From Cetorhinus maximus (taxonomy: Eukaryota), in assembly GCF_964194155.1 (NCBI RefSeq), contig NC_135901.1, positions 3,162,001-3,226,000 of the forward strand: a DNA stretch of 64,000 bases, written 5' to 3'. The notes beneath the pieces were generated by a model. That model was not told the origin of the DNA, made no database searches, and saw only the letters and a program-made list of their open reading frames with translations. Shown here piece after piece: positions 10,102-62,940 of the stretch; position 1 is the stretch's first letter, and each line of letters begins with the position of its first letter. The position numbers and the translations under genes are program-made.

Positions 10102-11265
10102 TCAGAATGAACATGGTTCAGTCCTGGTATGATTAACAGCATCAACAGGAGTAGAATCCAAACCTTGCAATCGCTTGTGAATCCACTGGTGTGTTCGCAG
10201 GTGTGATGACTGAGTGAATGCCTTTCCGCAGGCATTACAGGTGAACGGCCTCTCCCCACTGTGAACTCGCTGGTGTTTCAGCAGATAGGATGAATGAGAA
10301 AATCTCTTCCCACACACAGAGCAGGTAAATGGCCTCTCCCCACTGTGAATGCTCTGGTGTGTCAGCAGGTTGGATAACTGAGTGAATCCCTTCCCACACA
10401 CAGAGCAGGTGAACGGCCTCTCTCCAGTGTGTACTCGCTGGTGATTCAATAGGTTGGATGACCGGGTGAATCCCTTCCCACACACGGAGCAAGTGAATGG
10501 TCTCTCCTCAGTGTGAACCTGTTGGTGTGTCAGAAGGTTAGATGAACGAGTGAATCCCTTCCCACAGTCAGAGCAGGTGAACGGTCTATCCCCCGTGTGA
10601 AGTTGCTGGTGTATCAGAAGGTTGGATGAATTAATGAATCCCTTCCCACAGTCAGAGCAGGTGAACGGCCTCTCCCCAGTGTGAATTCGCTGGTGATTCA
10701 GTAGGGCAGACGGACGGCTGAATCCCTTCCCACAGTTGGTACAGGTGAATGGCCTCTCTCCAGTGTGAGTATATTGATGTGTTAGCAGATCCTTTTTGCT
10801 TTTAAAGCTCTTGTCACAGTCAGAACAATTAAAAAGTTTGTTATCAGAGTGAACAAGTTGATGTGTCAGAAGGTGGGATGACTGAATGAATCCCTTCCCA
10901 CACACGGAGCAGGTGAACGGCCTCTCCCCAGTGTGAATACGTTGATGTACCAGCAGATCTTTTCTGCATTTAAAACTCTTCTCACAGTCAGAACATGTAA
11001 ACGGTCTCTTATCAGTGTGCACAAGTTGGTGTGTCACAATGTGGGATGACCGAGTGAAGTCCTTCCCACACACAGGGCAGGTGAATGGCCTCTCCTCAGT
11101 GTGAACTCGCTGGTGTGTCCGAAGGTTGTACAAATGGGTGAATCCCTTCCCACAGATGGAGCAGGTGAACGGTCTCTCCCCAGTATGACTGCGCCGATGA
11201 ACTTCCAGTTGGGATGGGAAATTGAATCCCTTCCCACAGTCCACACATTTCCATGGTTTTTCCAT
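10102..11265 (-). CDS. C2H2 zinc-finger protein, 13 fingers, type B
   Basis: 387-aa ORF of tandem CxxC..HxxxH fingers with TGERPF linkers. Kozak accATGg, acceptor at 11627, polyA aataaa ~10051-10056. Confidence 0.93.
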
Positions 11266-11889
11266 GGTGTGGGGGTCCTTGTCTCTCTCCAGGTTGGACG
11301 ATTAGTTGAAGCCTTGTCCACACACAACACGTGAACAGTTTCTCCCCACTGTGAATGGTGAGATATTTTTGCAGACTGTGTAACTGCTTAAAGTTTTTTT
11401 CAAAGTCAATTCACTGGAACACACTCACTCGGGTGTGTGTGTGTTGAGGCTTTTCCAGTCATACAGATGTTTGAAATCCTTTCCCAAAGACAGATTAGAC
11501 AAACATTTCTCCTTCCACATTCAAAAGTTGATTATATTCAGGTCCTGATGAATTCAGTGCCTCTGACAGATCTTGATGTGATGTTTGCTTTGCGTTTTCT
11601 GTCTGCCAGTCACCTCCGTTTAATACCCTGTAAAACGAGTTTACAAAAGTCATCACTTTAAATCCAGGACTGAAATTCAGAACAGACAATTGTAGTTTCT
11701 ATGGAACATTTATTCCTCTCTTGTTCCCCCAAAGCTGTAAATCTCCGTCCCACACACTCTCCTTCCTCCCTGGGCTGAAATCCAAACCCATCTCACCATC
11801 TCCACCATTTCTTTCCTCCACTCCCAGTTTTCTCCCTCCCTCTCCTCTGCCTGGGTTCAGTTCTCCAGCTCCTGTGTCTCTGATTCAGG

Positions 11890-12330
11890 GTCTCAGGCGG
11901 GACCCCAGCTGCCGTCGGGCGGGACACAGGAGGGGGGACCCTCCCGGGTGTGTCTTACCCGGACCCTGAGTCCGTCCCGCCAGTTTCTGAGCCCCCGGGG
12001 GGCCCGCGGTCTCCCCGCAGTTTCTGAATCTCCCGCTCCGGAGCCTCTTCCCCTGAAGCCGGCGCTGTCACCGGGAAGAAGCCCCGGAGCTGCAAACACG
12101 GGTGATGGAGGCTGTGATCCGGGATTGCGGCCTACACCGGGTGTTTCTGGATCCTCCCCACCCCGGCTCCCAGAACCGCTCCTCCCTCCGCCTCAGCGAA
12201 TCTCACCCGCGTCTCCCGCACTCCCAGGGCTCTGAGCAAACTGACACTGCGCATGCTCCAGGTATCATCAGCATTGCGCCTGCGCGTTGGGCTCCTGCAC
12301 AGTGACTAGGGCACTTTCACACACGCAGGA
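11890..12330 (-). promoter_or_regulatory. CpG island/promoter and 5' exon(s) of ZNF 10102..11265
   Basis: High CpG density; NRF1-like tgcgcatgct (~12249) and tgcgcctgcgc (~12275); minus-strand donors cgg|gtgaga (~12206) and cgg|gtaaga (~11958). Confidence 0.75.
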
Positions 12331-13089
12331 GATTGTGGGTATCGGCAGTGCCATTGAAACACAAAATAGAGAACGAAAACAATTTTCTGATACCCAATTG
12401 TGAACAAATAAAAAGAAAAATCACACGCAAATCCTAGTAAATGGGTGCTCTGCCATGTTCCATTTCTAGAAGTGATTTAAACATATTTCAAGCCAGCTCA
12501 AACGTGTTAAGGGCAAGTCATGTTCAACTAACTTGCTGTAAATTCTTTACAAATGCCCATTCCCTTTCCTTCTGCTGTATAATGGAAGTTCCGTGCATTG
12601 GTGTTTCTTTATCATTTGGTTCTGATCTTTATTGATTGGTCTACGGTCAAAGTTTCAATCCCATAACCACAAAGTAATCACAAAAAAAATATTTTCCACT
12701 CACAATTACCCAGCACCCCAGCAGATGGGATTCTGCATTGCGACTGGAGGAGCTCCTGCCCACAGATTCTGCCTCCGACAAAGGTTGTTCTTATAGTGGC
12801 TGTCCCTGTGATTGATTTTTTGCGGGTTTTTCTGGGATAAAATTGCCCATTGCCCCCGTACAGTTGGAACCCTGGTTCTGAAATACTGTCCGTATGATTT
12901 TAAGGCTTCCTGGAATAATGCACCGATGGAAATCTGCAATAATCCATGGTCCCATCTGAGTTGCAGATTTTAATGTGATTGTCCAATCTAGAAAAAATAT
13001 CATTTCACCCCTTTAAACCTGATTCAGCTGATCCCCTCCACACATACTGCAAAAGATTATCTTTGAGATCAGCTGTTCCTTTATAGTCT

Positions 13090-13195
13090 GTAAGAAATAC
13101 AAAAAATTCTGGAAAAATTCAGCAGGTCTGACAGCATCTGTGGAAAGAAACACAGAGTTAATGTTTCGAGTCCGTATGACTCTTCTTCAGAGTCT
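13090..13195 (-). mobile_element. Penelope-type short repeat with minimal hammerhead motif
   Basis: Minus strand: gact-CTGAAGA-a-gagtc-atacg-gactc-GAAA-catt-aact, then ...cacagatgctgtcagacctgctg. Confidence 0.55.
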
Positions 13196-13489
13196 GTGTT
13201 ATTCTGAATTATGACATTCTCCTGAACCTGTCCTAACCCTTCTGCCAGTTCACTTATTGGAAACAGGGACTCTCCTTGTTTTAATGTTAACACGCCATGT
13301 CTCCCCAGTTATTCATTTAAGTCAGCCCATGAATTGTTTGAGCATTGTTTCATCATGTTCCCACATTTCATCAACAAATGTTGAAACGTATGCTTCACAC
13401 CCACAGGGTTTCATCTGTTTAAAGCCACAAACAGAAAGGTCCAGTTTTCTCCTGGAGGTTGAGACAAATCAGCTTTCAAAATGATGCAG

Positions 13490-13910
13490 GGTTTCAGCCA
13501 ATGAGGGACATCCGGATTCAGCCCCGCCCCTCATTCACTCCGATTGGTTGTAGGATCACACGCTCACGATCGGACCTACAGCTCCGCCCCCTCTTCCTAT
13601 TGGTCCGGAGTTTCCGTCAATCCACCCGGCACAGTGATCTGGAGCAGGCGCAGTGTGTGTAATGGCGGTGAACAGAAGCTTGTTTGTCGGATCCACAGGA
13701 GGTAAGATAAAGAGCGGAGTGGAGGGAAAAATAGAGCCGGTGGGTGGATGGGGAGGGTTCGTAAGCACTCGATGCGGCTCTGAACCCAAAGTAAGAAACT
13801 ATCTGTGGGGCGAAGGCTGCGGGATCGCGTCTCCAGCAAAAGGCCCGGGTTAACGACCGCCATCTTGAGCGGGGTTAATGTGTAGCATGGCGCATGCGCA
13901 GTCATTCCTG
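13490..13910 (+). promoter_or_regulatory. Promoter/first exon of ZNF 14770..15891
   Basis: CCAAT boxes (~13498, 13543, 13599), GC boxes, gcaggcgcag, YY1 aatggcgg and cgccatctt (~13858), NRF1 gcgcatgcgc (~13890), donor gag|gtaaga (13701/13702). Confidence 0.75.
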
Positions 13911-14769
13911 TCAGCAGGAGGAGAGAATGTTGTGCATTTCTATCCTGGACTGACGGGGATGGGTTTTGGAAACTCCTTTTACAGGGGATTGGAAGGGGAG
14001 GATTTACACACAGCAAACTCCAAGCAAAGATCACATTAAGATCTGACTCGAGTCACTCGATTCATCAGGACCTGGATATTATCAGTCTTTGAGTTTAAGC
14101 ATTGAGTTCCAGGTCATTAACACTCAATGTGTGAAATTTCTTCCTCACATTCCCCCTGTAGATCTTACCCTAAATCTTAAATCTGTGTCTGTGATACTTT
14201 TATGATTAGCTAATACCTTATGTTTTTTTCATTCATTCATAGGATGTGGGCTTTGCTGGATGGGCCAGCATTTATTGCCCATTCCTAGTTGCCTTTGAGA
14301 AGGTGGTGGTGAGCTGGCCCTTCTAGGTGGTGGAGGTTCAGGGTTTTGAGTTTCTGTCAAACTTCTGGTTGAGTTGTAATCCCTCTTTTTCAACCCTTCC
14401 CTCTCCCACCCCAACCCTTCTCTCTCTTCCTGTCTTCTCCCATCGAGGTGCCTTGTGTAGGCCCAGACTGGGTGGCAGATTCTCTTCCCTGAAGGACATC
14501 AGTGAACCAGTTGGGTTTTTATGACAATCCAGCAGTTTTCATGGTCACTTTTCCCTGGTGCCGGCCCCACAAATTACCAGATTCATTCAGCTCAATTTCA
14601 CAACCTGTTTTTGTGGGTTCTCTCTCACTCCTTTTTCTTTGTTTTAAATCAATTTCACAGGGTATTAGAAGGGGAGGATTTGCAGCTGGGAAACTGAAAC
14701 CAAACATCACATCAGGATCTGACAGAGTTGCCCAGCTTGTCGTCACCCAGATATCATCGGAAGTTGAAC

Positions 14770-15891
14770 ATGGAAGGAAAAAGCACCGTTCACAGTGGGG
14801 AGAAACCGTACACGTGTTCTGTCTGTGGACGAGGCTTCAACCGATCATCTAATCTGTTGAAACATAAATGCAGTCACAACAGGGAGAAACTGTGGAAATG
14901 TGGGGACTGTGGGAAGGGATTTAATTACCCATCAGAGCTGGAAAATCATCAACGAATTCACACTGGGGAGAGGCCATTCACCTGCCCTGAGTGTAGGAAG
15001 AGATTTACTTGTTCGTCCAGCCTGCTGAAACATCGGCGAGTTCACACTGGGGAGAGGCCGTTCACCTGCTCCGAGTGTGGGAAGGGATTTGCTCGGTCAT
15101 CCACCCTGCTGACACACCAGCGAGTTCACACTGACGAGAGACCTTTCAAATGCCCAGACTGCGGGAAGTGCTTTAAAAGTCCCCGGGAACTGACTGCCCA
15201 TCAACGTGTTCACACTGATGAGAGGCCATTCAGGTGCTCGCACTGTGGGACTGGGTTCAAGACATTATTTCACCTCACTGTTCACCAGCGAATTCACACT
15301 GGGGAGAGCCCATTCACCTGCTCCAAGTGTGGGAAGGGATTTGCTAACGCATCCACCCTGCTGAATCACCAGAGTGTTCACACTGACGAGAGACCTTTCA
15401 AATGTCCAGACTGTGGGAAGTGCTTTAAAAGTTCCGGGGACCTGATGATCCATCAACGTGTTCACACCGATGAGAGACCGTTCAGGTGCTCTCACTGCGG
15501 GACTGGGTTCAGACAATCATCTCAACTCATTGTACACCAGCGAATTCACAATGGGGAGAGACCATTCACCTGCTCAGAGTGTGGGATGGGATTCACTTGC
15601 TTATCCATCCTGTTGACACACCAGCGCACGCACACTGGGGAGAGGCCATTCACCTGCTCTGAGTGTGGGAGGGGATTCACAACCACATCCTCCCTGCTGA
15701 GACACCGGCGAGTTCACACTGGGGAGAGGCCATTCAGCTGCCCCGAGTGTGGGAGGGGATTCACAACCACATCCTCCCTGCTGAGACACCGGCGAGTTCA
15801 CACTGGGGAGAGGCCATTCACCTGCCCCGAGTGTGGGAGGGGATTCATAACCTCATCCAAACTGCTGAAACATCAGCGAGTTCACAAGTGA
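14770..15891 (+). CDS. C2H2 zinc-finger protein, 13 fingers, type A
   Basis: First in-frame ATG is 14770 ([14 protein letters not shown]); the ORF-track start at 14728 is a TTG. Acceptor tttcacag|g at 14661; polyA aataaa ~15996. Confidence 0.92.
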
Positions 15892-16079
15892 TTGGGTTTT
15901 TCTGTTAATCACATCCATGACTGAACTGTGTCCATTTGGTCTGTTTCTGCTGATGTTAATAAACTCCAGTCCAATTAATATTCTGGATAAAGTCAAATAA
16001 ATCAGCTTTGTGTTAAACTTGCACTGTGTTGAGTCTTTTTAATATCTCTAACACAAATTAGTTCCTTTTGAAGTGCTCT

Positions 16080-17910: not shown

Positions 17911-17914
17911 AGAC

Positions 17915-19140: not shown

Positions 19141-19412
19141 TTTTTACTTATTCGTTCATGGGATGTGAGTGTCGCTGGTGTCACTGGCTGGGCCAGCATT
19201 TATTGCCCATCCCTAATTGCCCTTGAGAAGGTGCTGGTGAGCTGCTTTCTTGAATCACTGCAATCCATGTGGAATAGGTACACGCACAGTGCTGTTAGGA
19301 AAGGGGTTCCAGGATTTTCTTCCAGTGACAGTGAAGGAATGGCGATAATAGTTCCAAGTCAGGATGGCGTGGGGCTTGGTGGAGAACATGAAGATGGTGG
19401 CGTTCTCATGCA
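19141..19412 (-). mobile_element. 5'-truncated LINE tail inserted at the end of the ZNF ORF
   Basis: Same tail family as 29778-30050 and 46742-47000; abuts the last His-Lys codons. Confidence 0.75.
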
Positions 19413-20113
19413 TCTTTGTGAACTCGCTGGTGTCTCAGCAGGGTGGATGAGTGAGCAAACCCCTTCTGACATACGGTGCAGGTGAATGGCCTCTCCCCAG
19501 TGTGAACTCGCTGGTGCTCCAGCTGGTTGGATAATGTAGTGAATCCCTTTCCACACAAGGAGCAGGTGAACGGCCTCTCACCAGTGTGAATGCGCTCGTG
19601 TGTCAGCAGGTTGGCTAACTGAGTGAATCCCTTCCCACACTCGGAGCAGGTGAATGGCCTCTCTCCAGTGTGAACTCGCTGGTGTACAGTGAGGTCAGAT
19701 AATTGCCTGAACCCAGTATGGCACCGAGAGCACCTGAATGGCCTCTCATCAGTGTGAATACGTTGATGGCGCATCAGTTCACCAGAACTTTTATAGCACT
19801 TCCCACAGTCTGGGCATTTAAAAGGTTTCTCGTCAGAGTGAACTCGCTGGTGAGCCAACAGGTTACATGACAGAGTGAATCCCTTCCCACACTCGGAACA
19901 GGTGAACGGCTTCTCCCCGGTGTGACTGCGCCGATGAGATTCCAGCTGAACTGGAAAATTGAATCCTTTCCCACAATCCCCACATTTACAGGGTTTCTCC
20001 TCAGTGTGACTGCGCTTGTGTCTCGACAGGTCAGATGATCGGTTGAAGCCTCGTCCACACACAGAACATGTGTACGGTTTCTCCCAACTGTGAACGGTGT
20101 TGTTTCCTTCCAT
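19406..20113 (-). CDS. C2H2 zinc-finger protein, 8 fingers, type A
   Basis: ATG at 20113 ([14 protein letters not shown]), 8 intact fingers, acceptor at 20222. The last codons and the stop come from the LINE insert. Confidence 0.9.
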
Positions 20114-20649
20114 GTTCAAAATCCGACAATATTCAGGTTACGATAAATTGTGCAACTCTGTTAGATCCTGATGTGATGTTGGGTTTGAATTTCCTGACTG
20201 TAAATTCTTCCCCTCTAATATCCTGTGAAATTGATTTAAAACAGAGAAAAGGGAGTGAGTGAGAGAACCCACAAAGGCAGATTGTGAAATTGAGCTGAAT
20301 GAATCTGGTAATTTGTGGGGCCGGCACTAGGGAAAAGTGACCATGAAAACTGCTGGATTGTCATAAAAGCCCAACTGGTTCACTAATGTCCTTCAGGGAA
20401 AGGGATCCACCATCTCATCTGGATCTGGACTCGGGCTTCTAAGAGAGAACAGGCAGACATTGAGATGTGGGAGCATTAGGGGGCAAAGGAGAGGGATTTT
20501 GTATATCCACAACTCAACCTAAACTTTGACAGAAACTTCCAAACCCTCAACTTCTACTATCTGTAAGGACCAGAGAAGCAGGTGTATATGAAAACCATCA
20601 CTTCCAAGTTCCCCTCCAAGTTGAAACCGTCTTGACTTGTCTGACTCCT

Positions 20650-22850: not shown

Positions 22851-23329
22851 AGGTTGTGAATTTCTCATCTGGACTCAGTGAAACCTCCCTGGAAACTCCT
22901 TTTACAGGAGTTAGAACAGGAGGATTCCCAAGCGGGAACCTCAAACCAAATATCATGTCATGATCTGACAGTTACTCGATTCATCAGGACCTGAATATCA
23001 TCGTCCTCAGAATGTGGAAGGTGAAATGTCTGTGGGCAAAGATTACAGATATTAGAGAGACTGGGAAACTTTTAATGATCTTTTCAGGTTAAATTTGAGA
23101 CCAATTCCATCGATCTCGTTGGGAATGTTGAAGAATTTTTTGTATGCAGGCAAATTACCTCGTGTGCTTAAATAAACATACTTGGCAGCTAAAGTGGGCA
23201 AACCGTTGAGCTGTGTTATTAGTGAGAGTTACAGTCCCAGTTTTGGGTAAAGTTTGTTGTCCATGTCGCAATTCATTCAGTCCGCTGTGTCCGTGATGAC
23301 CGACTAGTGGTCATCCAGCCAGATCCCAA

Positions 23330-24330: not shown

Positions 24331-24339
24331 ACTTTTTAA

Positions 24340-26560: not shown

Positions 26561-27251
26561 ACCTTGTAGATGTGGAGAGAGAATGTTTCCATTTGTCGGA
26601 GAATCCACAACTAGGAGCCAGAAATACAAGATAGTTACTGATAAATCCAGGAGGGAAATAAGGAGAAATATGTTTACTCAGAGTGGTTAGAAAGTGGAAC
26701 TCACGACCACAGGAAGTGGTTATGGCAAAAAGCTGAGATGATTTCAAAAGGAAACTAGATGAGTACATGAGAGAAAAAGGAATAGAAAGATGAACTGAAA
26801 GACTGAGCTGAGTTAGATGGAATGGAAGGGGAAGCGTGTGGTGTGTAAACACCAGCACACACTAGTTGGTCCAATGGCCTCTTTCTATTCTATATTTTCT
26901 CTTTTTACAGGCATGGAGTGTCAAAGAGAAACTAAAACCAATTATCAAGATTTGTCAGAGCCACTCAATTCATCAGGACCTGAATATCATTGGCCCTTGA
27001 ACGTAGAAGCAGAAATGTTTGTCTGTTCTGTCTGAGGAAAAAATTTCAAGCATCAGCGTGACTGGAAAAGACACCCACACACTCGAGTGAAAGTGTTCCA
27101 GTGCACTGACTGTGGAAAGAGCTTTGACCAGTTACACAGCCTGAAAAAGCATCATACCATTCACAGTGAGGAGAAACTGTACACATGTACTGTTTGTGGA
27201 CAAGGCTTTAATTGATCACCTAACCTGGAGAGACACAAGGACGCCCGCACC

Positions 27252-27755
27252 ATGGGGAAACCATGGAAATGTGGGGACTGTGGGAAGGGATTCAAATACT
27301 CATCCCGGCTGGAAACTCATCGACACACTCACACTGCGGGGAGACCGTTCCCCTGTTCCATGTGCCCAAAGGGATTCGCTCAGTCATCCGACCTTCTAAG
27401 GCACCAAATCACTCACACTGAGGAGAGGCCATTCACCTGCTCCATGTGTGGGAAGGGATTCATTAATTCATCCGACCTTCGGATACACCAGCGAGTTCAC
27501 ATTGGGGAGAGGCCATTCACCTGCTCTGCCTGTGGGAAGGGATTCAGTCAGTCAGCCCACCTGCTGGCCCACCAGAGAGTTCACACTGGGGAGAGACAAT
27601 TCTCCTGCTCCGACTGTGGGAAAGCATTCATCCATTCATCCCATCTGCTGAGACACCAGCGAGTTCACACTGGGGAGAGGTTGTTTACCTGCTCTGAGTG
27701 TGGGAAAGGGTTCACTCAGTCATCCCATCTGGTGAGGCACCAGCGAGTTCACTAG
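27252..27755 (+). CDS. C2H2 zinc-finger protein, 6 fingers, type B
   Basis: 167-aa ORF; accATGg start; acceptor at 26911; polyA aataaa ~27892. Confidence 0.9.
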
Positions 27756-28199
27756 TGACTGCAGGGGTTGGATTCTGCTGTTATTGCTGCAGTTAATCAC
27801 ATCCAGGACTGAACCATGTTCATTCTGAGAGTTGGTGTTCCTTTCTGCCAATAATAATTGCACTGAAGTTTAATATCCTGGTTATATATCAAATAAATCA
27901 GCTGTGTTAAACTCATTGTTGTAGATTTTTGTTTTTCCCACCTGAGTGTTTAACATCACCTGGCTGGAGCTCAGAAAGGACAATCTGGGGGAGGATCATA
28001 CGGCCGGAACAGAACTTCAACCTGGACACAGTCCAGGAGCACGATGACCATCCACACGTCGTTCCTGTTGGATAAAATCAAACACAGCGTTTATTCTCCG
28101 TTTAGTTATCTGACCTTTCCATTTTGTACAGTTTACACTGATCTCCATGGTAACACAGATATTGTGTTTCCTTCTCTCGTTACTGAATACTCAATCTAA

Positions 28200-36025: not shown

Positions 36026-36029
36026 GCAT

Positions 36030-36410: not shown

Positions 36411-37959
36411 TGGACCAGGCAGCAGGAGGAGAGAATATTGTGAATTTCTATCCTGGACTGACAGTGATGGAGTCTGGAACCCCTTTTACAGGGGTTAGGA
36501 GGGGAGGATTTACACACAGCAAACTCAAATCAAGAGAAATGTTTGTCTCTTCTGAATTTGTACCTGCATCTGACACTTATGACTTTTGTAATCTCCTTTT
36601 ACAGAGAGCTAGAAGATTTGAAGTCTGTGAGATTTTTCTCTGACTCCAATGCTTCTGATATCTTTCCAGCTGCAGGCTCCAGCAGGAGATTTTAAATTTG
36701 AAAACAGTGAAATTGTTTCAGGGGTGAGTATTATTGAACATTCATCGACAATTTAGAGCTTTTACTGCTGCGCTCTGGTCCCATGTCTCTGAGGCTGGTG
36801 TGGCTCCTTTACTGTGGATCTGAATCCATGTCCATCCATTGCTCTGCTTCACCCCTACCCTTCACAATCACCTCTCTACCGTTGTATGGCTCCATCTGCC
36901 TCTAATGATGGGTGTATTTTAACCATGTTTAGTATTTTACTGTTATTTTCACCAACTGTGTCTAAATGAGGCTTCCACTGCTGCCCATCCCCCCAGCTAT
37001 TCACTGTTGATTTACCAGCTTTATCTTCCCATGGCCAGGAATTATTTTTCCTGCACTAGAGATCATTTCTCTCCCACTTCTGAGCTTATATTGACTGTCA
37101 AATTCTGCTTCATTTGTATTCCCCATAATTCATTCTGTACACCCTGAAATGTTAACTCTTTCTCTTTCCACAGTTACTGCCTGACCTGCTGAGTATTTCT
37201 AGCACTTGCTCTTTTTATTTCAGATTTCCAGCAGCTGCAGTATTTTGGTTTGGTTTTATTGCAGGCATTTCTCACAGAACCGAGTCTGGGAACAGAGATG
37301 AACCAATTAAGAACGGATTTGTATTTGGGTGGGTGTTGATTGGAGAGGTTGGTCCCTGGCCTCCAGTGTTAGTCTTTTTCATGCAGCCATAGAATTACAA
37401 TACAGGAGGCCATTTATCCTGTCATTCCTGTGCTGGCTGTGTGCAACTGCAGATCAGCTAGTCCCACTCCCTGCCCTTTCCTCATAGCCCAGCTTTTTCT
37501 CTTCAGGTACTTATCCAATTTTATTTTCAAAGCCTTTGCTGTATCAGTTTGAGCTGGAGTGGAGATGGAGGAGAAGCTGCTGGGTTTAACCACAAGGACC
37601 CAGCAATTTCCAACGTGAAGTTGTCAAAGGGAGGTAGGTTTTGGGGAAGATGAGGTTGATGAGCAGACACTGGCCATGAAATGTAAAAGATCATTGTTTT
37701 AGGAAAAAATATTTCTGTAGATGCTTTTAATCTACTCTACAAATGCATACTTATAAAATTTATTCTGGGGATTTGGGCGTCACTAACAAGACCAGCAGCA
37801 GATATTTCCCATCCCCAGTTACCTGTGGAGAAGATGATGTTTGACCTTCTTGAACTGCTGCAGTCCGTGTGGTGAAGGTGCTCCCACAATGATGTTAGAT
37901 AAGGAGTTACAGGTTATTCACCAGTGATGAAGAAGAAACAACGATATATGTCCAAATCA

Positions 37960-40481: not shown

Positions 40482-41687
40482 ACGGAAGGAGAAAGCACTG
40501 TTCACAGTGGAGAGAAACCGTACACGTGTTCTGTGTGTGGTCGAGGCTTCAGCCAATTATCTGACCGATCAGAACATAAATGCAGTCACAACAGGGAGAA
40601 GCCGTGGAAATGTGGGGACTGTGGGAAAGGATTTAATTACCCGTCTGACCTGAAAACTCATCGGCGCAGTCACACTGGGGAGAGGCCATTCACCTGCTCC
40701 GAGTGTGGGAAGGGATTCACTCAGTCCTCCCACCTGCTGATACATCAACGTGTTCACACTGATGAGAGGCCATTCAGATGCTCTCACTGTGGGATGCGTT
40801 TCAGGCGATCATCTGACCTCACTGTACACCAACGAGTTCACACTGGAGAGAGGCCGTTCATCTGCTCCAAGTGCGGGAAGGGATTCACTCGATCATCCAA
40901 CTTGCTGATACACCAGCAAATTCACACTGGGGAGAGACCATTCACCTGCTCCGAGTGTGGGAAGGGATTCAATCATTCATCTGACCTGCTGCAACACCAG
41001 CGCGTTCACACTGGAGAGAGGCCATTCACCTGCTCTGAATGTGGGAAGGGGTTTACTTGTTCATCAGACCTGCTGACACACCAGCGAGTTCACACTGGGG
41101 AGAGACCATTCATATGCTCCAAGTGTGGGACAGGATTTGCTCGCTCATCCACATTACTGAGGCACCAGCGAATTCACACTGACGCGAGACCGTTTAAATG
41201 CCCAGTCTGTGGGAAGTGTTATAAAAGCTCCAAGGAACTGTTGTCTCATCAACGTGTTCACACGGATGAAAGACCATTCAGGTGCTCTCTCTGCGGGACT
41301 GGATTCAATCAATCATCTGACCTCACTGTACACCAGCGAATTCACACTGGGGAGAGGCCACTCACCTGCACGGAGTGTGGGAAGGGATTCACTCAGTCAT
41401 CCAATCTGCTCAGACACCAGCGAGTTCACACTGTGGAGCGACCGTTTAAATGCTCAGACTGTGGGAAGCGTTATAAAGGTTCCCAGGAACTGATGTCCCA
41501 TCAACGTGTTCACGCTGACGAGAGACCATTCAGGTGCTCTCAATGCGGGATTGGATTTAAGCGATCATCTCAACTCACTGTACACCAGCGAATTCACACT
41601 GGGGAGAGACCGTTCAGCTGCACAGACTGTGGGAAGGGATTCACTCAGTCTTCCGCTCTACTGAGACACCAGCGAGTTCACAAGTAA
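40482..41687 (+). CDS. C2H2 zinc-finger array, 14 fingers, type A; ACG at the usual start position (non-AUG start or young pseudogene)
   Basis: Intact ~400-aa frame. aacACGgaagga replaces aacATGgaagga of the paralogues; in-frame TAA at 40455-40457; acceptor at 40418. Confidence 0.78.
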
Positions 41688-46329: not shown

Positions 46330-46700
46330 GTCAGGCTGAGTCTGTGGCCGCTCTCAGCGTTTGAAACCGTCACAATGCCCGGGTGATTGACGGAAGCTGC
46401 GGACCAATAGGAAGAGGGGGCGGGACTGGAGGACCGAGCGTCGAGGATGGTCCTCCAACCAATCGGAGTGAATGCGGGGGCGGGACCGGACTGTGACTGA
46501 AGCATGCGCAGTGCGGGTAATGGCGATGGGGAGACGGGTCCACAATGGGTAAAGGGGGGGTTGGCGGGGCGGAGGGAGCGATGGATCCGGCGGGTGGACG
46601 GAGAGGCTCCGGAAACATGTTGTGTAAACCGCAAACCCCGGAAATAAACTGACCGGTTCCCCCCTCCCCCGTTTGCACCGAGCGGGGCCGCAGCTCCCAG
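46330..46700 (+). promoter_or_regulatory. CpG promoter/first exon of ZNF 48254..49012
   Basis: Two CCAAT plus GC-box pairs (46404-46484), NRF1 gcatgcgca (~46502), aatggcg, ETS-like ccggaa. Confidence 0.75.
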
Positions 46701-46741
46701 ATCAATGAAGAGCCGGTTTGTATCAGGCTGGACATTGGTTC

Positions 46742-47220: not shown

Positions 47221-48253
47221 TCTTCGCTCCCTCGGCTTGACACATTTATTTGTCTGGCTAAAAGGATGGCCTCTTTCCTAATGTTCACAATTAAAGTGGT
47301 GGATTCCCCAGGAGATGGCTGACATTTGAGGGGACAGTAAAGTAATATAGGACAGAAATATGCCTGGTGTTATTATATGGTATATATTAGATATGTTATT
47401 TATGATTCTGTAATAAAGTTAATTTATTGTTATTTCTAGTCTTGTAACATAGCACTGTAGCTATGTTATATATTTCGAGTCAGTCATTATGGCACAGAAG
47501 GAGTCCATTCAGTAATTCAAATCCATGCTGATTCTCTGTAGAGTAACCCAGTCAGTCCTATTCCCCTTCTATATCCCCGTTCCCCTGCAAGTTTATTTCC
47601 TTCAAGTGCACACCCAGTTTCATTTTCATATCATTGACCATCTCCACTTCCACCACACAGTGAGTTCCATGTCTAGCAGCCTGCCTGAACATTTTCAGGT
47701 CTGTGTCCTGGACAGAAAGCGATGAGCATGATCTGTTAGGTCAGCAGATTGAGATTGGATGGAGAATATGTGGGATCGAGATTGACAGTCTTTGGGGAAT
47801 GAAAGAGGAAAGAATGTTCCATAGAAAGTAGACTTGTGTGTTCTGAATTTCTATCCTGTACTGACAGTGATGACTTTTGTAAACTAACTCCATTTACAGG
47901 ATATTAGAAACGGAGGATTTACAGACAGAAATCGCAAACCAAACATTACATCCAGACCTGACTTGATTTATGGGAGCTCAATATCATCAGCCTTTGAACT
48001 AGAAAGAGAAATGTTTGTTCTGTCTGCTTCAACAGATTTTAAACGTCACTGTGTCTGGAAAATCACCAAGAAGCTCGTGTACACACATGTGCGAGAGTTC
48101 CAATGCACTGACTGTGGAGAAAACTTTAACCAGATACACAGACTGAAGAAACATTGCACCATTCACAGCCAGGAGAGACCGAACACGTGTACTGTTTGTG
48201 GATGAGGCTTCAGTTAAACATCTTACCTCAAGGAATGCAAGGACACCTGAACC

Positions 48254-49012
48254 ATGGAGAAACCATGCAAATGTGGGGAATGTGGGAAGGGATTCCGGTC
48301 CCCATCTGCACTGGAATCTCATCGCCGCATTCACACTGGGGAGAGGCCGTTCACCTGCTCTGATTGTGGAAAGGGATTCACTCAGTTATCCCACCTGCAG
48401 ATACACCAGCGACTTCACACCGGGGAGAGGCCGTTCACCTGCACTGATTGTGGGAAGGGATTCACTAACTCTTCCAATCTGCGGACACACCAGCGAGTTC
48501 ACACGGGGGAGAGACCGTTCACCTGCTCCATATGTGGGAAAGGTTTCAGTGATTCATCCAGCTTGCTGATACACCAGCGAGTTCATACTGGGGACAAATC
48601 ATTCAACTGCTCTGTATGTGGGAAGCAATTCAGTCGATTATGCAACCTTCTGCGACACCAGCGAGCTCACACTGGGGAGAGGCCGTTCACCTGCTCTGAG
48701 TGTGGGAAGGGATTTGCTGATCCATCCATCTTGCAGAAGCACCGGCGAGTTCACACTGGGGAGAGGCCATTCAGCTGCTCCATGTGTGGGAAGGGTTTCA
48801 CTCAGTTAACCAACATGCTGACACACCAGCGAGTTCACACTGGGGAGCGGCCTTTCATCTGCTGTGAGTGTGGGAAGGGATTCAGTGATTCATCCACCCT
48901 ACTGCGACACCAGGGTGTTCACACTGGGGAGAGGCCGTTCACCTGCTCCATGTGTGGGAAACGATTCACTCGGTCATCTCACCTGCTGAGACACCAGCGA
49001 GTTCACCAGTAA
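48254..49012 (+). CDS. C2H2 zinc-finger protein, 9 fingers, type B
   Basis: 252-aa ORF; accATGg start; acceptor at 47900. Confidence 0.92.
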
Positions 49013-49214
49013 TTACAGGGGTTGGATTCTGCTGTGATTGCTGCTGTCAATCACATTCAAGACTGAACCATGTTCATTCTGACAGTTGGTGAAGTGGGAG
49101 GGTCAAAGGGTTTCTTTCTGCTGTACTGGCCAGTCTTACAACTTTGTTTCCAGTGGTCTGGAAGTGCACATTTCCACTGAAATGTTCCACAGAAGCTGAT
49201 GAAGGTCATTTATT

Positions 49215-55954: not shown

Positions 55955-56300
55955 ATTTGAATATTGCTGAAAAAAGAGACATGCTGTCAAAGCTTTTCGT
56001 CTTGCACTCATCAGGATAGATGCAAGAATACCAAATGTCAAAGGGAACAACAGTTTAAACTGTCTGAGAAACAGGGTGCTAATTGGTTGTCATGGCATTG
56101 CCATGGAGAATGCACCAGGGAACAGTTACCCCAAGCTTTTGTTCAAATTCAGAAATGGCAAGTCAATTCTGATTGGTTGAGATGTTGCCATGGGGAATGC
56201 ATCAAGGAACAATTGTCCCCTAAACTCCTGTTTAATTAAAAAGGCAAAATGCTTGGAACAAATTCCTTTTGTGTGCAGAAAACAGGGCCCAGTATTTGAA
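55955..56300 (-). mobile_element. Penelope pseudo-LTR remnant
   Basis: Similar to 35258-35610; contains a hammerhead motif. Confidence 0.65.
55984..56019 (-). ncRNA. Minimal type I hammerhead ribozyme motif (Penelope-associated)
   Basis: ctatc-CTGATGA-gt-gcaag-ac-GAAA-agct-TT-gacag: intact core, 2-bp stem II, palindromic AGCT in place of stem III, stem I with one mismatch. Confidence 0.6.
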
Positions 56301-57099
56301 TATGAAAAATCCAGTGCCTGGATCCAGTTTGCATGTTCACTACATCTAATCATTTCTTCCTATGGCCATAGCCTATTCGTGTACCACGTTTTGTTAAAAT
56401 CTATCCATTAGTTTTTAAGATATATTGTTACAGACAGACAGACAAACAAACAGGGATGAAAACATTCTCTGTAAGGACAAGCTGAAAAAATAAACGTTTT
56501 TATTAAGACCGAGGAAGCCTTAGGCTAATCCACAGCCAACAACCTGCTCTGAAAACTCTGCTGATATTTTGACAGCTGTGATAAATTCCACCCCAGCAGC
56601 GTAGACAATCCACAACATTCCAAAGCAATCGCCATTCGAAATAAAACAAACCACAACAATTGAAAAGAAAAAGTCAATTCTCCTGCTCTCCCAATATGAA
56701 CGGATCCTTCAAAAAAATTCCAGGATCCGGAACTACACCAAAGATAGGACAGTTCTTGCATGGTCGGTGTACCAAGTTTCAGTAAATCCATCCATTAATT
56801 TGTGAGATCAATTGTTTACAGACAAACATCTTCAATGGCAGAGATACTCTCAGTACATTGACCAGCCCCAAAATCTACTGTCTGCCAGTATTTCACAGGG
56901 GGAAAGGGGTGGATTCTCAGACGAGTAAGATAAGGCATCCCCTTTAAATAGCCAGTTCCCACAATGTATTCAGTGGCTTCTGGAGGGAAGCAGATTGGTC
57001 CACACTGGGAGTTCTTGCACTGCCCCTCCCCCCAGCCTCAGGTCAGCTGGCTCCTGCTCCTGCTGGACAATCTGCCTGTAAGAATAGGAGCGTGTTGAT

Positions 57100-57560
57100 T
57101 TAAAAATAAACTTGCATTTATATAGCACCTTCCACCACCTCAGGGAGTCTCAAAGTGTTCCACTGCCAATGAAACGCTTTTTGAAATGTGGTCACACTGT
57201 AGGAAACGTGGCAACCAATTTGTGCACAGCAAGCTCCCACAGACGGCAATGGCCAGAGTGTCTGTTTTCACTGATGTTGATTGAGGGATAAATATCAGGC
57301 ACCAGGACACCAGGGGAGATCTCCTCCCCCTCGTGCTCTCCTTCCAATTGTGGCCATTGAATCTTTTACATACACCTGAGAGGGCAGACGGGGTTCTCGG
57401 GTTAATGTCTCACTGGAAAGACGGTCCCTCCGACAGGTCAGCTCTCCCTCATAACTGGCACCGGAGGTGTCAGCCGTGGATTCTGGGGGCTTGAGTCTCT
57501 GGGTTGGGGATTCGAACACAGCACCTCCTGACTCAGAGGTAAGAGTGCGACCCACTGTCA
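57100..57560 (-). mobile_element. Deu-domain SINE (SacSINE1-like), near full length
   Basis: Head gcactcttacctctgagtcaggagg..gttcgaatccc; Deu core gtctttccagtgagacattaacccgag..ctgccctctcaggtg; L2-like tail gtgctatataaatgcaag. Confidence 0.7.
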
Positions 57561-57906
57561 TGCTGTGTTGAATAAAATCATCTCGCTGGTGTTCTAGAAT
57601 GATGGAATGGTTACAACACTGAAGAGAGGCTATTCAGCCCATTGTGTCTGTGCCAGCCCTCTGCAAGAGCAGCGAACATAGTGTCATTCCGCTACCTTTT
57701 CCACATAATCCTGTCAATTTTTCCCCTTCAGATAATGATCCAATTTTCTGTTGAAAACCATGACCGAATCTTCCTCCAAGCCCCTTCATCCCTGGCACCA
57801 TTCTAGTACATCTCCAATCCTCCCCTTCACCAACTGTCAGAATGAACATGGTTCAGTCCTGGATGTGATTAACAGCAGCAATAACGGCAAAACCCAACCC
57901 CTGTAA

Positions 57907-58749
57907 TTACTTGTGAACTCGCCGGTGTCTCAGCAGACTGGATAACTGACTGAAACCCTTCCCACACATAGAGCAGGTGAATGGCCTCTCACCAGTGTGA
58001 ATTCGCTGGTGTCTCAGCAGGGTGGACGAATCTCTGAATCCCTTCCCACATTCAGAGCAGATGGACGGTCTCTCCCTGGTATGAACTCGCTGATGCATCA
58101 CCAGGTTGCATGACTGAATGAATCCTTTCCCACATCCAGAGCAGGTGAATGGCCTCTTCCCATTGTGAACATGTTGGTGTGTCTGCAGGTGGGATAATTG
58201 AGTGAATCCTTTCCCACACTCGGAGCAGATGAAAGGCCTCTCCCCGGTGTGAACTCACTGGTGTGTCAGCAGGTTGGATGACTGAGGGAATCCCTTCCCA
58301 CATGTAGAGCAGATGAAAGGCTTCTCCCCGGTGTGAACCCGCTGGTGTGTCAGGAGGGCAGATGAATCGCTGAATCTCTTCCCACACTCAGAGCAGGTGA
58401 ATGGCCTCTCTCTGGTGTGAACTCGCTGGTGCATCATCAGGTTGGATGACTGAGTGAATGCCTTCCCACACTCAGAGCAGATAAATGGCCTCTCCCCAGT
58501 GTGAACTCGCTTGTGTGTCAGCAGGTGAGATGAATTACTGAATCCCTTCCCACATTCAGAGCAGACGAAAGGCCTCTCCCCGGAGTGAACTCGCTGGTGT
58601 TTCAGCAGGGTGGATGACTGAGTGAATGCTTTCCCACACTCAGAGCAGGTGAAAGGCCTCTCCCCAGTGTGAATGCGTTGATGAGTTTCCAGCGCAGATG
58701 GGGTGCAGAATCCCTTCCCACAGTCCCCACATTTGTACGGTTTCTCCAT
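57907..58749 (-). pseudogene. Type B C2H2 ZNF, 10-finger frame with one premature stop (164-aa truncated product or pseudogene)
   Basis: ORFs 58255..58749 and 57907..58101 share a frame. The only lesion is HQ*VH (TGA at 58257-58255, CGA in most other fingers) in finger 6. Acceptor at 59111. Confidence 0.85.
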
Positions 58750-60099
58750 GGTGCAGGTGTCCTTGTGTCCCTCCAGGTTAACCGCTCAGTTGAAACCTCA
58801 TCTTCACACAGAACGTGTGTACAATCTCTCCCGGCTGTGAATGGCGTAATGTTGTTTCAGACTGTATAACTGTTTAAAGCTCTTTTCACAGTCAGTGCAC
58901 TGGAGCACTGTCACTCAGTTGTCTGTGTCTCATTGCTTTTCCAGTCACACTGATGCTTGAAATGTTTTCCCACAGACAGAACAGGGGAACATTTCTCCTT
59001 CCACATTCAAAGGGCTGATGATATTCAGGTCCTGATGAATCCAATAACTCTGTCAGATCTTGATGCGATATTTGGTTTGAGTTTCCCAGATACAAGTCCT
59101 CTCCTAATATCCTGTAAAAGGAGTTTACAAAAGTTATCATTGTCAGTGCAGGATAAAAATTCACAACACATAATTCTAGTTTCTACGGAACATTCTTTCT
59201 CTCATATTCCCCAGAAGCAGTAGCTCTCTGTCCCACACACAGTCCCTCCATTCTCACTTTGCTGTAACTCCCAAATCTCCTGAAGGTGCCATTTCATGCT
59301 GATCAGCAGATCCATGTGCACTGCTTCCTGTCCAGGGCACAGGGGCCTTTGAAATCATTATGCAGGCTATATATATATGTATACATTACTGGATTTAAAA
59401 TGTGCATAATATACACTGGCATTACTTGATTAAAGATACAGAGAGGATGCAAGGAAGAGCTTTATTTAGGAGCGAATGTGCATGACCTGGAACTCACTGC
59501 CTACAAGGGTGGAGGAACTCGCGATGATCAGTGATTTCAAAATGAAATTGGTGGACACTTGAAGGAAATAAACTTGTAGGAGAACGGGGTAGAGAGGGAG
59601 AATGGGATGGATGGCTCTAGAGAGAGTCAGCATGGACTTGAGTTGCTGAATGCATTCCTGTGCTGTAATGACTCGATAACTGGAAATATATAACGGTAGC
59701 TAGAGTACTATATTACAAGACTAGACATATTTATAAATGAAAGTTATTATCGGTCAACAAAAAATATATCAAATATTTACCATATAAAAACATTCGACAT
59801 ATCTCTGCCCTATATTAGTTTACTGCCAGCTTAAATGTCAGGCATCTCCTGGGGAATCCGCCTATTTTATTGGAAATACTAGGAAAGAGGCTATCCTTTT
59901 AGCCAGACAAATAAATGTGTCAAGCTGAGGGAGTAAAGGGTGTCAATGTCTTTAAGAGAGAGCGAGAGAGAAAGAGAGACCTGGGTCAACCTTTCCACAG
60001 TCTGCACCCTCTTCCTTTCCCTTCAGTTCCTGCAGGTCAACAATTTAAACCCAGAATTAGAAAAGAAATGGAAAGGGGGAGAAAAAGAAAGTGTTTTAC

Positions 60100-60900
60100 T
60101 CACAGATATTTGACACGGGACTGGGGAGAAAGTTTTCGTGTGTGAGAAGCTAAATCCTCATTCAGAGAGAGAAGCAGCATCAGCAGCTTTGCTGGGCAGT
60201 AACGGACAGGTTTAAAAGCTCATTGTCCAACATCCGCATTCAAACAATGGGGGAAGCTCCGTGTCGGCAATGCGACAGTGCCCGCGCTCTGATTGGTTGG
60301 AGGACCATCCACCTTCCGGTCGTCCAGCTCCTCCCATTGGTTAACCTCGGTCCGACCACAATGAGGGAGAGTAACCCGAGCGCGTGTTCGGTGGAGAGAG
60401 TTTGACCATCAAGTCCAGTGCTCTCAATGTGAACTGGGAACGCTCCTCTGAATCATTGTGACGCCTGAATCAGCCAATAGGACTGACTGTGCTCCGCGGT
60501 GACGTCCTCGGGTTCCAGTTTGCAGACCAGGCGCGCGGACACGGTAGCCCCACCCATTGTTCCCCATCCCCCTAACCTCCTCGAGCCAAAGTTTCCAGGC
60601 AACCGGCTGACGGCTCCGGCCAGAGCGAGAAGCCGCTCAGCGAATTCCCCCTCTGTCTACGGCGACTGGCTTCTCCAAAAAGAGATCGAGAGCGACCGCT
60701 GACGGCAGCCGCACTGCGCCTGCTCCGGACAGAAAGCGCTTTCTGCGCCTGCGTGCTGGGCTGCCAGCTATGGGAGTGGGGAGGGGACTGTGTAAAATGT
60801 CTTCTCATTTTCTTCCAATGCAATTTGATTTTAAACGGCACAGCATTTGTGTTTAGGTTCATAAACATTAAAACTTCTTCCTCGGTCCAACATCTGTGAG
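60100..60900. promoter_or_regulatory. Bidirectional CpG promoter for ZNF 57907..58749 (-) and ZNF 62266..62940 (+)
   Basis: CCAAT boxes (~60292, 60336, 60474), CRE-like tgacg (~60459, 60500), tgcgcctgc twice; matching donors atct|gtgagtaaa at ~60103 (-) and ~60896 (+). Confidence 0.75.
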
Positions 60901-62265
60901 TAAATCACTTTCTTTCCTTCCCCTGGGAAGTACAGAGAGTTGTGGGACTCTGTAACTGGAATTAGTGCCAAATATGCTGAGGGGGGAAATGCTGGTGATT
61001 TTGTGGACCAGGCTGATGCTCCAGCTGTTTAAAGTCATATTTATCCGGTCTATTGAAATGCTATTTGTCTGTTAATGCAGGCTTCATTTATGTTGAATTT
61101 AGTTTGATTGTTACCGGCATCGTTTTTAAAAAATAAAACCTTGTCCTTCTGTTTATTCCGTTGGGGTTGTCTGGGAATTTGTATATTTTAAGGTTATTGG
61201 TTTCCACAGGGATCGTAACAACAGAGAAATGTCTAGTTATTTATTATTCTGTATTAAAGTTCATTTATTATTATTTCTAGTCCTGTAATAATACTGTAGC
61301 TGCATTATATATTTCCGGTCATAGACTCATTACAGCACAGATGGTGTCCAATTGGAAACTCAGATCCATGCTGACATTCTGTAGAGTAATCCAGTGAGTC
61401 CCATTCTCCATCTGTATCCTCGTTCCCCTGAAAGTTTTTCTTTCAACTCCCTATCCAATTTCATTTTGAAACCATTGATCATCTCCGGTTCTGCCATCCT
61501 CATAGGCATCGAATTCCAGGCCATGACTACTCGCTGTCTAAATAAAGTTCTTCCTCAAATCCCCTCTGTATCGCTAATCAAGTATTACAATCTTTTTGGC
61601 TCCTTCAGGAGAATTGGGAGTGTATAAATGAGATATAACAGAGTGAGAATGAAGGGAGTAAAAACAGAAAATGGTGCAAAAAACTCAGCAGGTCTGGCAG
61701 CATATGTGGAGTGAGAAACAGAGCTAACATTTTGAATCTGTCTGAACATTCCTGAGAGCTCAAAATGCAGGGAGCATGTTGGGAATGGAGATTTACAGCT
61801 TTTGGGGAATGAGAGGGGAAAGAATGTTCCATAGAAACTAGAATTGTCTGTTCTGAATTTCTATCGCAGACTTTCTGTGATGACTTTTGTAAACTCCTTT
61901 TACAGGACGTTAGAAGGGGATGATTTGCAGTCAGAAAGCTCAAACCAAAGGTCACGTCAAGATCTGGCAGAGCCACTCGATTCATCGGGATCTGAATATC
62001 AGCAGCCTTTGAACCTAGAAGAAATATTTGTCTGTTATGTCTGCTTCAAAGTATTTGAAACATCAGTGTGACTGGAAAAGCACCGATTCTCACACACCCG
62101 AGTGAGTGTATTCCAATGCACTGGCTTTGGAAGGAGCTATGAACTGTTATACAGTCTGAAGAAACATTGCAGCTTTCACAGCCGGGGAGACCGCACAGGG
62201 GTTGTGTGTTTGAGCGAGGCTTCAACTGATTGTCAAACCTGGAGAGACACAAGGGTACTCGCACC

Positions 62266-62940
62266 ATGGAGAAACCATGGAAATGTAGGGATTGTGGGAA
62301 GGGATTCCGATGCCCGTCTGCATTGGAAATTCATCAACGCAGTCACACTGGGGAGAGGCCATTCACCTGCTCTGAGTGTGGGAAGGCATTCAGTGGTTCA
62401 TGGCAGCTGCACGCACATCAGCGAGTTCATGCAGTGGAGAGGCCATTCACCTGCTCTCAGTGTGGCAAGAGATTCAGTGATTCATCAACCCTGCTGAGAC
62501 ACCAGCGAGTTCACACTGGAGAGAGGCCGTTCACCTGCTCTGAGTGTGGGAAGGGATTCACCCAGTTATCCAACCTGCTAACACACCAGGAAGTTCACAC
62601 CGGGGAGAGGCCATTCACCTGCTCTCATTGTGGGAAAGGATTCACTCGGTTATTCAACTTGCAGACACATCAGCGAGTCCACACCGGGGAGAGGCCGTTC
62701 ACCTGCTCTGTGTGTGGGAAGGGTTTCACCCAGTCATCCAACCTGCTGCTACACCAGCAACTTCACACTGGGGAGAGGTCATTCCTCTGCTCTCAGTGTG
62801 GGAAGGGATTCACTCGATTATCCAGCCTGCAGAGGCACCAGCGAGTTCACACCGGGGAGAGGCCTTTCATCTGCTCTGTGTGTGGGAAGGGATTCACTCA
62901 GTCATCCCATCTGCAGACACACCAGCGTGCTCACAAGTGA
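62266..62940 (+). CDS. C2H2 zinc-finger protein, 8 fingers, type B
   Basis: ATG at 62266 in accATGg (ORF-track start 62230 is a TTG directly after a stop); acceptor at 61906; aataaa ~63135. Confidence 0.92.

What the first reader, a model, noticed from the sequence alone, without database searches (positions are those of the whole stretch)
10102..62940. KRAB-less ZNF family with a conserved lead finger: candidate effector module of a shark TE-control system
Seen: all eight arrays are almost only fingers, yet each keeps one distinctive finger first (type B) or second (type A): [152 protein letters not shown]. Pro at helix +1 (7/8), Glu at +5 (7/8) and Trp before KC (5/8) are conserved, while -1/3/6 vary. 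Known: +1 and +5 are not canonical base-contact positions, and tetrapod KRAB-ZNFs and cyprinid FiNZ-ZNFs couple a fixed N-terminal module to variable arrays to repress TEs. Inference: this finger may be a cofactor-docking module replacing KRAB in a fast-evolving family embedded among TEs.
Basis: partly seen in the sequence, partly recalled or inferred. Interest (0 to 1): 0.72.

Follow-up and report, generated by a model that had tools for sequence, protein, structure and literature searches.

The report
Shark zinc-finger genes' fixed lead finger
A shark chromosome carries an estimated three thousand zinc-finger genes with no known silencing domain, and nearly all keep one chemically odd finger at the front while their other fingers are lost or reshuffled; that finger is likely a contact point for a partner protein, but no partner and no role against transposons has been shown.

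Summary
Observation confirmed and extended. In 1.66 Mb of this genome, 144 of 168 finger arrays carry the lead finger, never behind an ordinary finger; Pro+1 with Glu+5 occurs in 112 of 131 lead fingers, 0 of 1,288 other family fingers and 0 of 1,057 non-shark fingers. About 3,000 copies are estimated on contig C24; sharks and a ray share it. Correction: it is finger four of an older array whose first three fingers are now dead leader or deleted. No in-frame upstream domain is possible through the shared splice acceptor in 136 of 144 genes. The whole finger is no more constrained than others (dN/dS 0.42 against 0.41-0.52), but +1, +5, Trp and Lys are, its helix is acidic, and it was never cleanly deleted (0 of 44) whereas the finger before it was (17 genes). 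Against a pure docking module, positions -1, +3 and +6 evolve faster than neutral. Partner, repression and transposon targeting are untested; repeat density on C24 equals other chromosomes. The scan noted this family and finger before in this and other shark genomes.

The parts
10102..11265 (-). g1 coding region, type B, 13 fingers, 387 aa from a strong-context ATG inside the old inter-finger linker
   Evidence: many near-identical copies on C24
11185..11268 (-). g1 lead finger unit (class B)
11269..11627 (-). g1 untranslated leader: splice acceptor at 11627, spacer and three dead fingers (H, J, L)
   Evidence: neutral evolution
12001..12400 (-). g1 CpG island with promoter-type motifs (inferred promoter and non-coding first exon)
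13502..13885 (+). g2 promoter module (GC boxes, CCAAT, NRF1-like and YY1-like motifs; names recalled) and first-exon donor near 13700; shared by at least 17 of 68 genes
14661..14769 (+). g2 splice acceptor and spacer, in-frame stop at 14695
   Evidence: one contig of run X9 begins at 14659 with 281 unmatched letters before it
14770..15891 (+). g2 coding region, type A, 13 fingers (G finger, lead finger, 11 more), 373 aa
14878..14961 (+). g2 lead finger unit
19406..20113 (-). g3 coding region, type A, 8 fingers, 235 aa; acceptor at 20222
19922..20005 (-). g3 lead finger unit
26911..27248 (+). g4 acceptor, spacer and dead fingers
27252..27755 (+). g4 coding region, type B, 6 fingers, 167 aa; lead finger 27249-27332 has Ser at +1
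40482..41687 (+). g5 type A array, 14 fingers; start site reads ACG, no in-frame ATG before the lead finger (40590-40673, Lys at +5): probable pseudogene or non-AUG start
47900..48250 (+). g6 acceptor, spacer and dead fingers
48254..49012 (+). g6 coding region, type B, 9 fingers, 252 aa; lead finger 48251-48334
57913..58749 (-). g7 type B array, 10 fingers, in-frame TGA in finger 6 (164 aa product); lead finger 58669-58752
58753..59111 (-). g7 acceptor, spacer and dead fingers
61906..62262 (+). g8 acceptor, spacer and dead fingers
62266..62940 (+). g8 coding region, type B, 8 fingers, 224 aa; lead finger 62263-62346

Best explanation
These are finger-only C2H2 genes of a chromosome-sized shark family, and their single, position-fixed lead finger is a selectively kept, chemically atypical finger that likely offers a small contact surface (Trp-Lys hairpin edge, Pro+1, Glu+5) to a partner protein while the fingers behind it are predicted to read DNA. 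Shown: position, signature, site-specific constraint, acidic helix, retention when neighbours are lost, no in-frame upstream domain. Inferred: that the constrained residues form one surface, that a protein binds it, and that the finger still sits weakly on DNA (its -1, +3, +6 change fast but stay among small or aromatic residues). Not shown: the partner, repression, or transposon targets.
For: Position: first lead finger preceded only by the ancestral H/J/L/G fingers or nothing in 144 of 144 arrays; single copy in 139 of 144, while classes A, C, D, E, F repeat and shuffle. Signature absent from 1,288 family and 1,057 non-shark fingers. On a tree built from the dead leader (pooled dN/dS 1), +1 0.2, +5 0.2-0.35, Trp 0.05-0.35, pre-Cys Lys 0.02-0.05; pairwise in intact genes +5 0.28 (0.13-0.47) against 0.98-1.82 in classes A, C, D, E, and +1 0.15 against 0.33-0.66. 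Helix -2..+6 net charge -0.75 against +0.36 to +0.95; R/K/H/N/Q at -1 in 3% and at +6 in 5% against 70% and 46% in class A. Clean deletion of the preceding G finger in 17 genes (7 label changes on a weakly supported tree, at least 3 with supported sister pairs) against no clean deletion of the lead finger in 44 G-led arrays. The signature is no N-terminal cap by origin, since the finger was fourth in the ancestral array and is second in type A. Present first or second in gene models of Rhinoraja, Pristiophorus, Stegostoma, Heterodontus and two Scyliorhinus species, and with one His lost in Heptranchias. Precedent for one finger of an array docking a chromatin protein: Kipferl ZnF4 and Rhino (PMC11245307, passages).
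Against: Whole-finger dN/dS 0.42 (0.37-0.48), no lower than 0.41-0.52 in other classes. -2, -1, +3, +6, +10 run at 2-3 times neutral; -1, +6 and +10 exceed at least 99.7% of 332 neutral non-CpG columns, the pattern of a DNA-reading finger (9 of 120 neutral codons also score above 1, many at CpG sites). Glu+5 retention 74 of 82 is only at the 95th percentile of neutral codons, and Pro/Glu are kept as often in broken genes (77 and 76 of 84) as in intact ones (63 and 59 of 66). The internal D class is equally atypical (Lys-2 42 of 42). One open-frame array (C37) has a decayed lead finger and three annotated proteins (P0125, P0140, P0155) lack it. Recognisability across sharks proves little: the dead leader, with the same stop codons, is as recognisable in Pristiophorus, Heterodontus and Carcharodon models. 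No partner known; no coordinates were available to test whether the residues cluster.
Confidence: 0.45

Rival explanations
1. The lead finger is an ordinary, weak DNA-reading edge finger. It keeps its identity because the 5' end of a tandem array escapes the unequal crossing-over that homogenises internal repeats, and its Pro, Glu and Trp are kept only for fold stability (helix-start Pro, i to i+4 Glu-Arg bridge; recalled structural rules).
For: Whole-finger dN/dS like others; fast -1/+3/+6; backbone-type Lys, His+7, Arg+9 and the TGE(R/K)P linker retained; first repeats of the Prdm9 array form their own group and evolve differently (PMC3890296, passages); in type B the ATG lies in this finger's linker, which by itself ties it to the gene.
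Against: Ordinary fingers fold without these residues and almost never carry Glu+5; the true first finger of type A (G) lacks them and is often deleted; in type A the ATG does not depend on the lead finger, yet it was not cleanly deleted in 44 arrays.
Confidence: 0.35
2. One reading: the finger replaces KRAB, recruits a corepressor, and the family silences transposons in sharks.
For: Same architecture evidence as the best explanation; family size about 3,000 and birth-and-death pattern (80 of 144 genes broken) resemble KZFP and FiNZ clusters (PMC10547256, passages); only 1 KRAB match among 150 scored candidates in the genome, on C34.
Against: No target, expression-timing or repression data; repeat density on C24 not raised; KRAB and FiNZ are separate exons with a conserved domain, whereas five helix positions here diversify.
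Confidence: 0.15
3. An unrecognised upstream exon supplies the real effector domain and the lead finger is incidental.
For: The exon begins at a phase-1 acceptor followed by a 37-codon spacer, like the KRAB-ZNF last exon (the KRAB comparison is recalled); 8 of 144 genes are open from acceptor to lead finger; no transcript junction could be read.
Against: In-frame stops or shifts block the path in 136 of 144 genes; none of the 150 best spacer-plus-H matches that is free of stops lies in a frame long enough to reach the array; gene models with a translated spacer have unrelated N-termini, and the five scanned against Pfam (P0120, P0121, P0130, P0137, P0152, plus P0157) show only finger families or none; no family-wide conserved segment other than promoter and intron remnants within 4.5 kb upstream of 64 intact genes.
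Confidence: 0.05

Closest known systems
Cyprinid FiNZ-ZNF family (Wells et al. 2023, PMC10547256; passages read)
   Same: Lineage-specific, clustered, hundreds to thousands of tandem C2H2 genes with one fixed N-terminal element and a variable array; KRAB absent.
   Different: FiNZ is a 28-aa non-finger domain on its own exon and knock-down derepresses TEs; here the fixed element is itself a C2H2 finger inside the array exon, and no TE effect is known.
Tetrapod KRAB zinc-finger proteins
   Same: Tandem arrays with TGE(R/K)P linkers, birth-and-death clusters, last exon opening with a spacer.
   Different: No KRAB in any of the genes; one KRAB match in the whole genome, elsewhere; upstream frame closed by stops.
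Drosophila Kipferl (ZAD-ZNF) ZnF4 binding the Rhino chromodomain (PMC11245307; passages read)
   Same: Precedent for one C2H2 finger within a DNA-binding array serving as a protein dock in TE-related chromatin.
   Different: Single gene with a ZAD domain and a proven partner; no sequence relation tested; no partner known here.
First repeat of the PRDM9 finger array (PMC3890296; passages read)
   Same: An array's first unit forms a class of its own and evolves apart from the rest.
   Different: That unit is not predicted to be a functional finger; this one keeps all four zinc ligands (36 of 36 intact type-B genes).

Membership tests
KRAB-ZNF | KRAB-A box N-terminal to the array | tested here: not met
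   Pfam scan of g1 and g2 shows finger families only among the rows listed; PF01352 matches once in G000, on C34; upstream frame closed in 136 of 144 genes
KRAB-ZNF | Tandem C2H2 array with TGEKP-type linkers in a birth-and-death cluster | tested here: met
KRAB-ZNF | TRIM28 recruitment and repression | not testable with these tools
   no assay data
FiNZ-ZNF | 28-aa acidic FiNZ domain on a separate upstream coding exon | tested here: not met
   no FiNZ profile was available, but any upstream coding exon is blocked by stops in 136 of 144 genes and no conserved upstream coding segment was found
FiNZ-ZNF | Accelerated change at base-contact positions | tested here: met
   pairwise pN/pS 1.2-1.7 at -1, +3, +6 in classes A, B and C; 2-3 times neutral in the lead finger
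FiNZ-ZNF | TE derepression on knock-down | not testable with these tools
   none
SCAN-ZNF | SCAN domain upstream of the array | tested here: not met
   none of the 150 listed PF02023 matches (of 4,987 candidates) lies on C24; upstream frame closed
Effector-type fixed N-terminal module (works like KRAB or FiNZ) | One copy per gene at a fixed N-terminal place | tested here: met
   139 of 144 single copy, 144 of 144 ahead of the variable array
Effector-type fixed N-terminal module (works like KRAB or FiNZ) | More constrained than the fingers of the array | tested here: inconclusive
   whole finger no (0.42 against 0.41-0.52), four sites yes
Effector-type fixed N-terminal module (works like KRAB or FiNZ) | Binds a cofactor and acts when tethered | not testable with these tools
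   needs IP-MS and reporter assays

The most novel reading that the evidence does not exclude
Sharks and rays run a third, independent vertebrate ZNF silencing system: thousands of genes on one chromosome in which an effector was lost or never present, three front fingers died, and a single C2H2 finger inside the array became the cofactor dock, so that a finger itself does the job of KRAB or FiNZ.
Probability: 0.2. Interest if true: 0.85.

Novelty: new variant of a known kind. Interest (0 to 1): 0.55.

Why it matters
Cartilaginous fishes are reported to lack KRAB-box gene families (PMC8455134, passages) and to hold PRDM9 as the only KRAB-related gene (PMC11603059, passages), so how they use or police a large ZNF repertoire is open. 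This family gives a concrete handle: one 28-residue unit, four residues to mutate, and a natural neutral control (the dead leader). If it docks a corepressor it is an independent solution to the KRAB problem; if not, it is still an undescribed chromosome-scale gene family (not found in full-text searches; supplements of Wells 2023, which may count shark ZNFs, were not read).

Tried and rejected
Homodimer prediction of the lead finger with zinc: no verdict (score 0.06, mark 0.32, alignment not used); no evidence either way. Sequencing-run search: no RNA holder listed; the runs laid are guessed RNA, contigs only, from related sharks at 85% likeness: they cover the finger exons and the dead leader in all four, but joints were swamped by finger repeats, so first-exon splicing remains unread. 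Homologue search with g2 residues 1-70 was swamped by generic ZNFs (6 of 120 listed were chondrichthyan); spacer region alone as a single query found nothing. ESM Atlas and PDB gave only generic C2H2 proteins; no solved finger with this signature was shown. Literature on +1/+5 backbone contacts: nothing usable; PMC7293014 (passages) says only that positions 1 and 5 are minor contributors to specificity. Rejected: stop read-through of the dead fingers (frameshifts differ between copies, pooled dN/dS 1); TE enrichment of the cluster; conversion from neighbouring A fingers as the cause of +6 variation (Thr+6 occurs with lead-type residues behind it); cross-species similarity as proof of selection (dead leader equally recognisable). 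Single-column ML rates above 5 are saturated on a near-star tree and were replaced by column diversity and a site dN/dS scan. The first iqtree codon run finished only class B (omega 0.47).
Full report
Observation. The eight arrays and the eight quoted fingers are present as described. Pro+1 7 of 8, Glu+5 7 of 8, Trp 5 of 8. Six genes look intact; g5 lacks the start ATG and g7 has a stop in finger 6. The window is G000:C24:3162001-3226000 of a 4.0-Gb genome; all named close relatives are sharks and rays.

Scale. 116 of the 150 best matches to the g1 lead finger lie on C24, from 0.5 to 64.8 Mb; most others are on small unplaced contigs. Twenty evenly spaced 10-kb samples of C24 hold 10 lead fingers, 18 samples from other large contigs none, which gives about 3,300 copies on C24 (Poisson range about 1,600-6,000). 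Of 144 genes examined 64 are open from the lead finger on and 80 are broken: birth and death.

Anatomy. I read 1.664 Mb (window, flanks and 15 further blocks chosen near search hits). Clustering of 857 fingers by nucleotide distance gave distinct classes, which were then used to label 1,838 fingers in 168 arrays. All eight window genes share a splice acceptor 190-380 nt before the lead finger. Behind it lie a 37-codon spacer and, in type B, three dead fingers (H, J, L) with two shared TGA stops (53 and 64 of 82 genes) and varied frameshifts; the type-B ATG sits in the old linker six codons before the lead finger. Type A deleted H and J, kept L as a live finger (G) and starts earlier. A third type (17 genes) also deleted G cleanly. 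So the 'lead' finger is finger four of the ancestral array. The stops are old: gene models from Pristiophorus and Heterodontus end at the H stop and one from Carcharodon at the L stop. Each gene has a CpG-island promoter module whose first exon shows no conserved frame.

No upstream domain. Only 8 of 144 genes are open from acceptor to lead finger, some in a non-ancestral frame. None of the stop-free matches among the 150 best to spacer-plus-H lies in a frame longer than 147 codons. Proteins that contain the translated spacer (26, 36) have unrelated N-termini, several plainly translated promoter or intron. No family-wide conserved segment other than promoter and intron remnants lies within 4.5 kb upstream of 64 intact genes. 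KRAB matches once in the genome, on C34; none of 150 listed SCAN matches is on C24. Direct transcript proof is missing: contigs of four guessed-RNA runs cover finger exons and leader, and one begins at the g2 acceptor, but no junction was readable.

Position and signature. The first lead finger is preceded only by H, J, L, G or nothing in 144 of 144 arrays; 139 have one copy, five have two or three (tandem duplication at the front or adjoining genes). Of the 24 arrays without one, 17 are fragments lacking a 5' end and 7 hold a damaged remnant; one of these (C37) is an open frame. Pro+1 with Glu+5: 112 of 131 lead fingers, 0 of 1,288 other family fingers, 0 of 1,057 fingers in 114 non-chondrichthyan ZNFs. 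The finger stands first or second in gene models of a ray and five shark species, and with one His lost in a sixth.

Selection. Whole-finger pairwise dN/dS in intact genes is 0.42 (0.37-0.48, n=60), against 0.41-0.52 for classes G, A, D, C, E, F; Cys and His were required for inclusion in all classes. The dead leader gives an internal neutral control on the same tree (82 type-B genes; pooled 1.0). Against it +1 scores 0.2, +5 0.2-0.35, Trp 0.05-0.35, pre-Cys Lys 0.02-0.05, while -2, -1, +3, +6 and +10 score 2-3. The control is noisy: 17 of 120 neutral codons fall below 1 and 9 above 1 at p<0.01. Tree-free column diversity agrees: second positions of +1 and +5 are below 99% of 332 neutral non-CpG columns, those of -1, +6, +10 above 99.7%. 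Plain retention is more modest: Pro 77 of 82, Glu 74 of 82, against a neutral median of 77% and 95th percentile of 90%. In other classes +5 is free (0.98-1.82; class F 0.64, G 0.87). The fast positions vary within a narrow chemistry: -1 is Tyr, Ser, Cys or Phe in 53 of 60, +6 Thr, Ile or Ser in 52 of 60, and the helix is net acidic. The preceding G finger was deleted cleanly several times (7 label changes, at least 3 with supported sister pairs; backbone weak); the lead finger never in 44 G-led arrays, where the start codon does not depend on it.

Mechanism. The best reading is a finger that is needed once, at the front of the DNA-reading array, for something ordinary fingers do not do: likely a protein contact through Trp, Lys, Pro+1 and Glu+5, with weak residual DNA contact (0.45). 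A history-plus-stability reading is close behind (0.35): array ends escape homogenisation (Prdm9 first repeat, PMC3890296 passages), and the internal D class shows that atypical conserved fingers are not confined to the front. The strong KRAB-replacement and TE-silencing claim has no direct evidence (0.15): repeat cover on C24 (0.24) equals that elsewhere (0.26), RT-like cover 0.11 against 0.09.

Known systems. It works architecturally like FiNZ-ZNF and KRAB-ZNF clusters (PMC10547256 passages; no mention of sharks in its main text) but fails membership of both. Kipferl ZnF4 is a precedent for a docking finger (PMC11245307 passages). Cartilaginous fishes are reported to lack KRAB-box families (PMC8455134 passages; PMC11603059 passages). 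Four full-text searches listed no paper on this family or finger; supplements were not read. Earlier notes of this scan describe the family in this genome and the finger and dead leader in other shark genomes; they are not independent evidence.

Verdict. Real, family-wide and specific feature; new variant of lineage-specific tandem ZNF expansions; function as a cofactor dock plausible but unproven. Interest 0.55.

Noticed in passing
window 11269-11627 (-), 47900-48250 (+) and all type-B leaders: An in-frame ATG just before dead finger H (52 of 82 genes) would open a 15-codon upstream frame ending at the shared TGA; about ten copies among 150 hits stay open for roughly 130 codons through H and J to the second TGA. 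Possible uORF control or mere inheritance.
   Followed up: partly
window 15130-15297, 19670-19837 and across C24: A fixed two-finger module (classes D then C) recurs inside type-A arrays; D has an invariant Lys at -2 and Ser/Glu at -1/+3, as atypical as the lead finger.
   Followed up: partly
window 13964-14044, 22892-22966, 36478-36534: Extra copies of the acceptor and spacer start lie between promoter and true acceptor of g2, g4 and g5; possible non-coding middle exons.
   Followed up: no
window 46370-46675, 60201-60800: Promoter modules that look two-way: one between head-to-head g7 and g8, one at g6 with the CCAAT/GC block on the opposite strand and no partner gene.
   Followed up: no
L122-L131 (C24 18.76 Mb) and proteins P0056, P0122, P0131: A broken histone H2B match lies among the ZNF genes, 39 tRNA-like hits occur in 1.66 Mb, and Pristiophorus gene models fuse histones to the family spacer, so the family interleaves with histone genes there.
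   Followed up: no
L081 (C34:9123034-9123144): The only KRAB match in the genome, an isolated exon; probably PRDM9 (inferred from PMC11603059, not checked).
   Followed up: no
genome-wide: 4,987 SCAN-like candidates scattered over all large contigs, many with stops; probably retrotransposon capsid relics.
   Followed up: no
window 10102-10176, 27753-27790, 49010-49045, 62938-62975: Most arrays end with a stop followed by the same short in-frame tail; g1 has Arg in place of the stop and translates the tail.
   Followed up: no
L046 (C24 31.354 Mb) and L090 (33.684 Mb): Lead finger tandemly triplicated or duplicated at the front of two otherwise intact-looking arrays.
   Followed up: no
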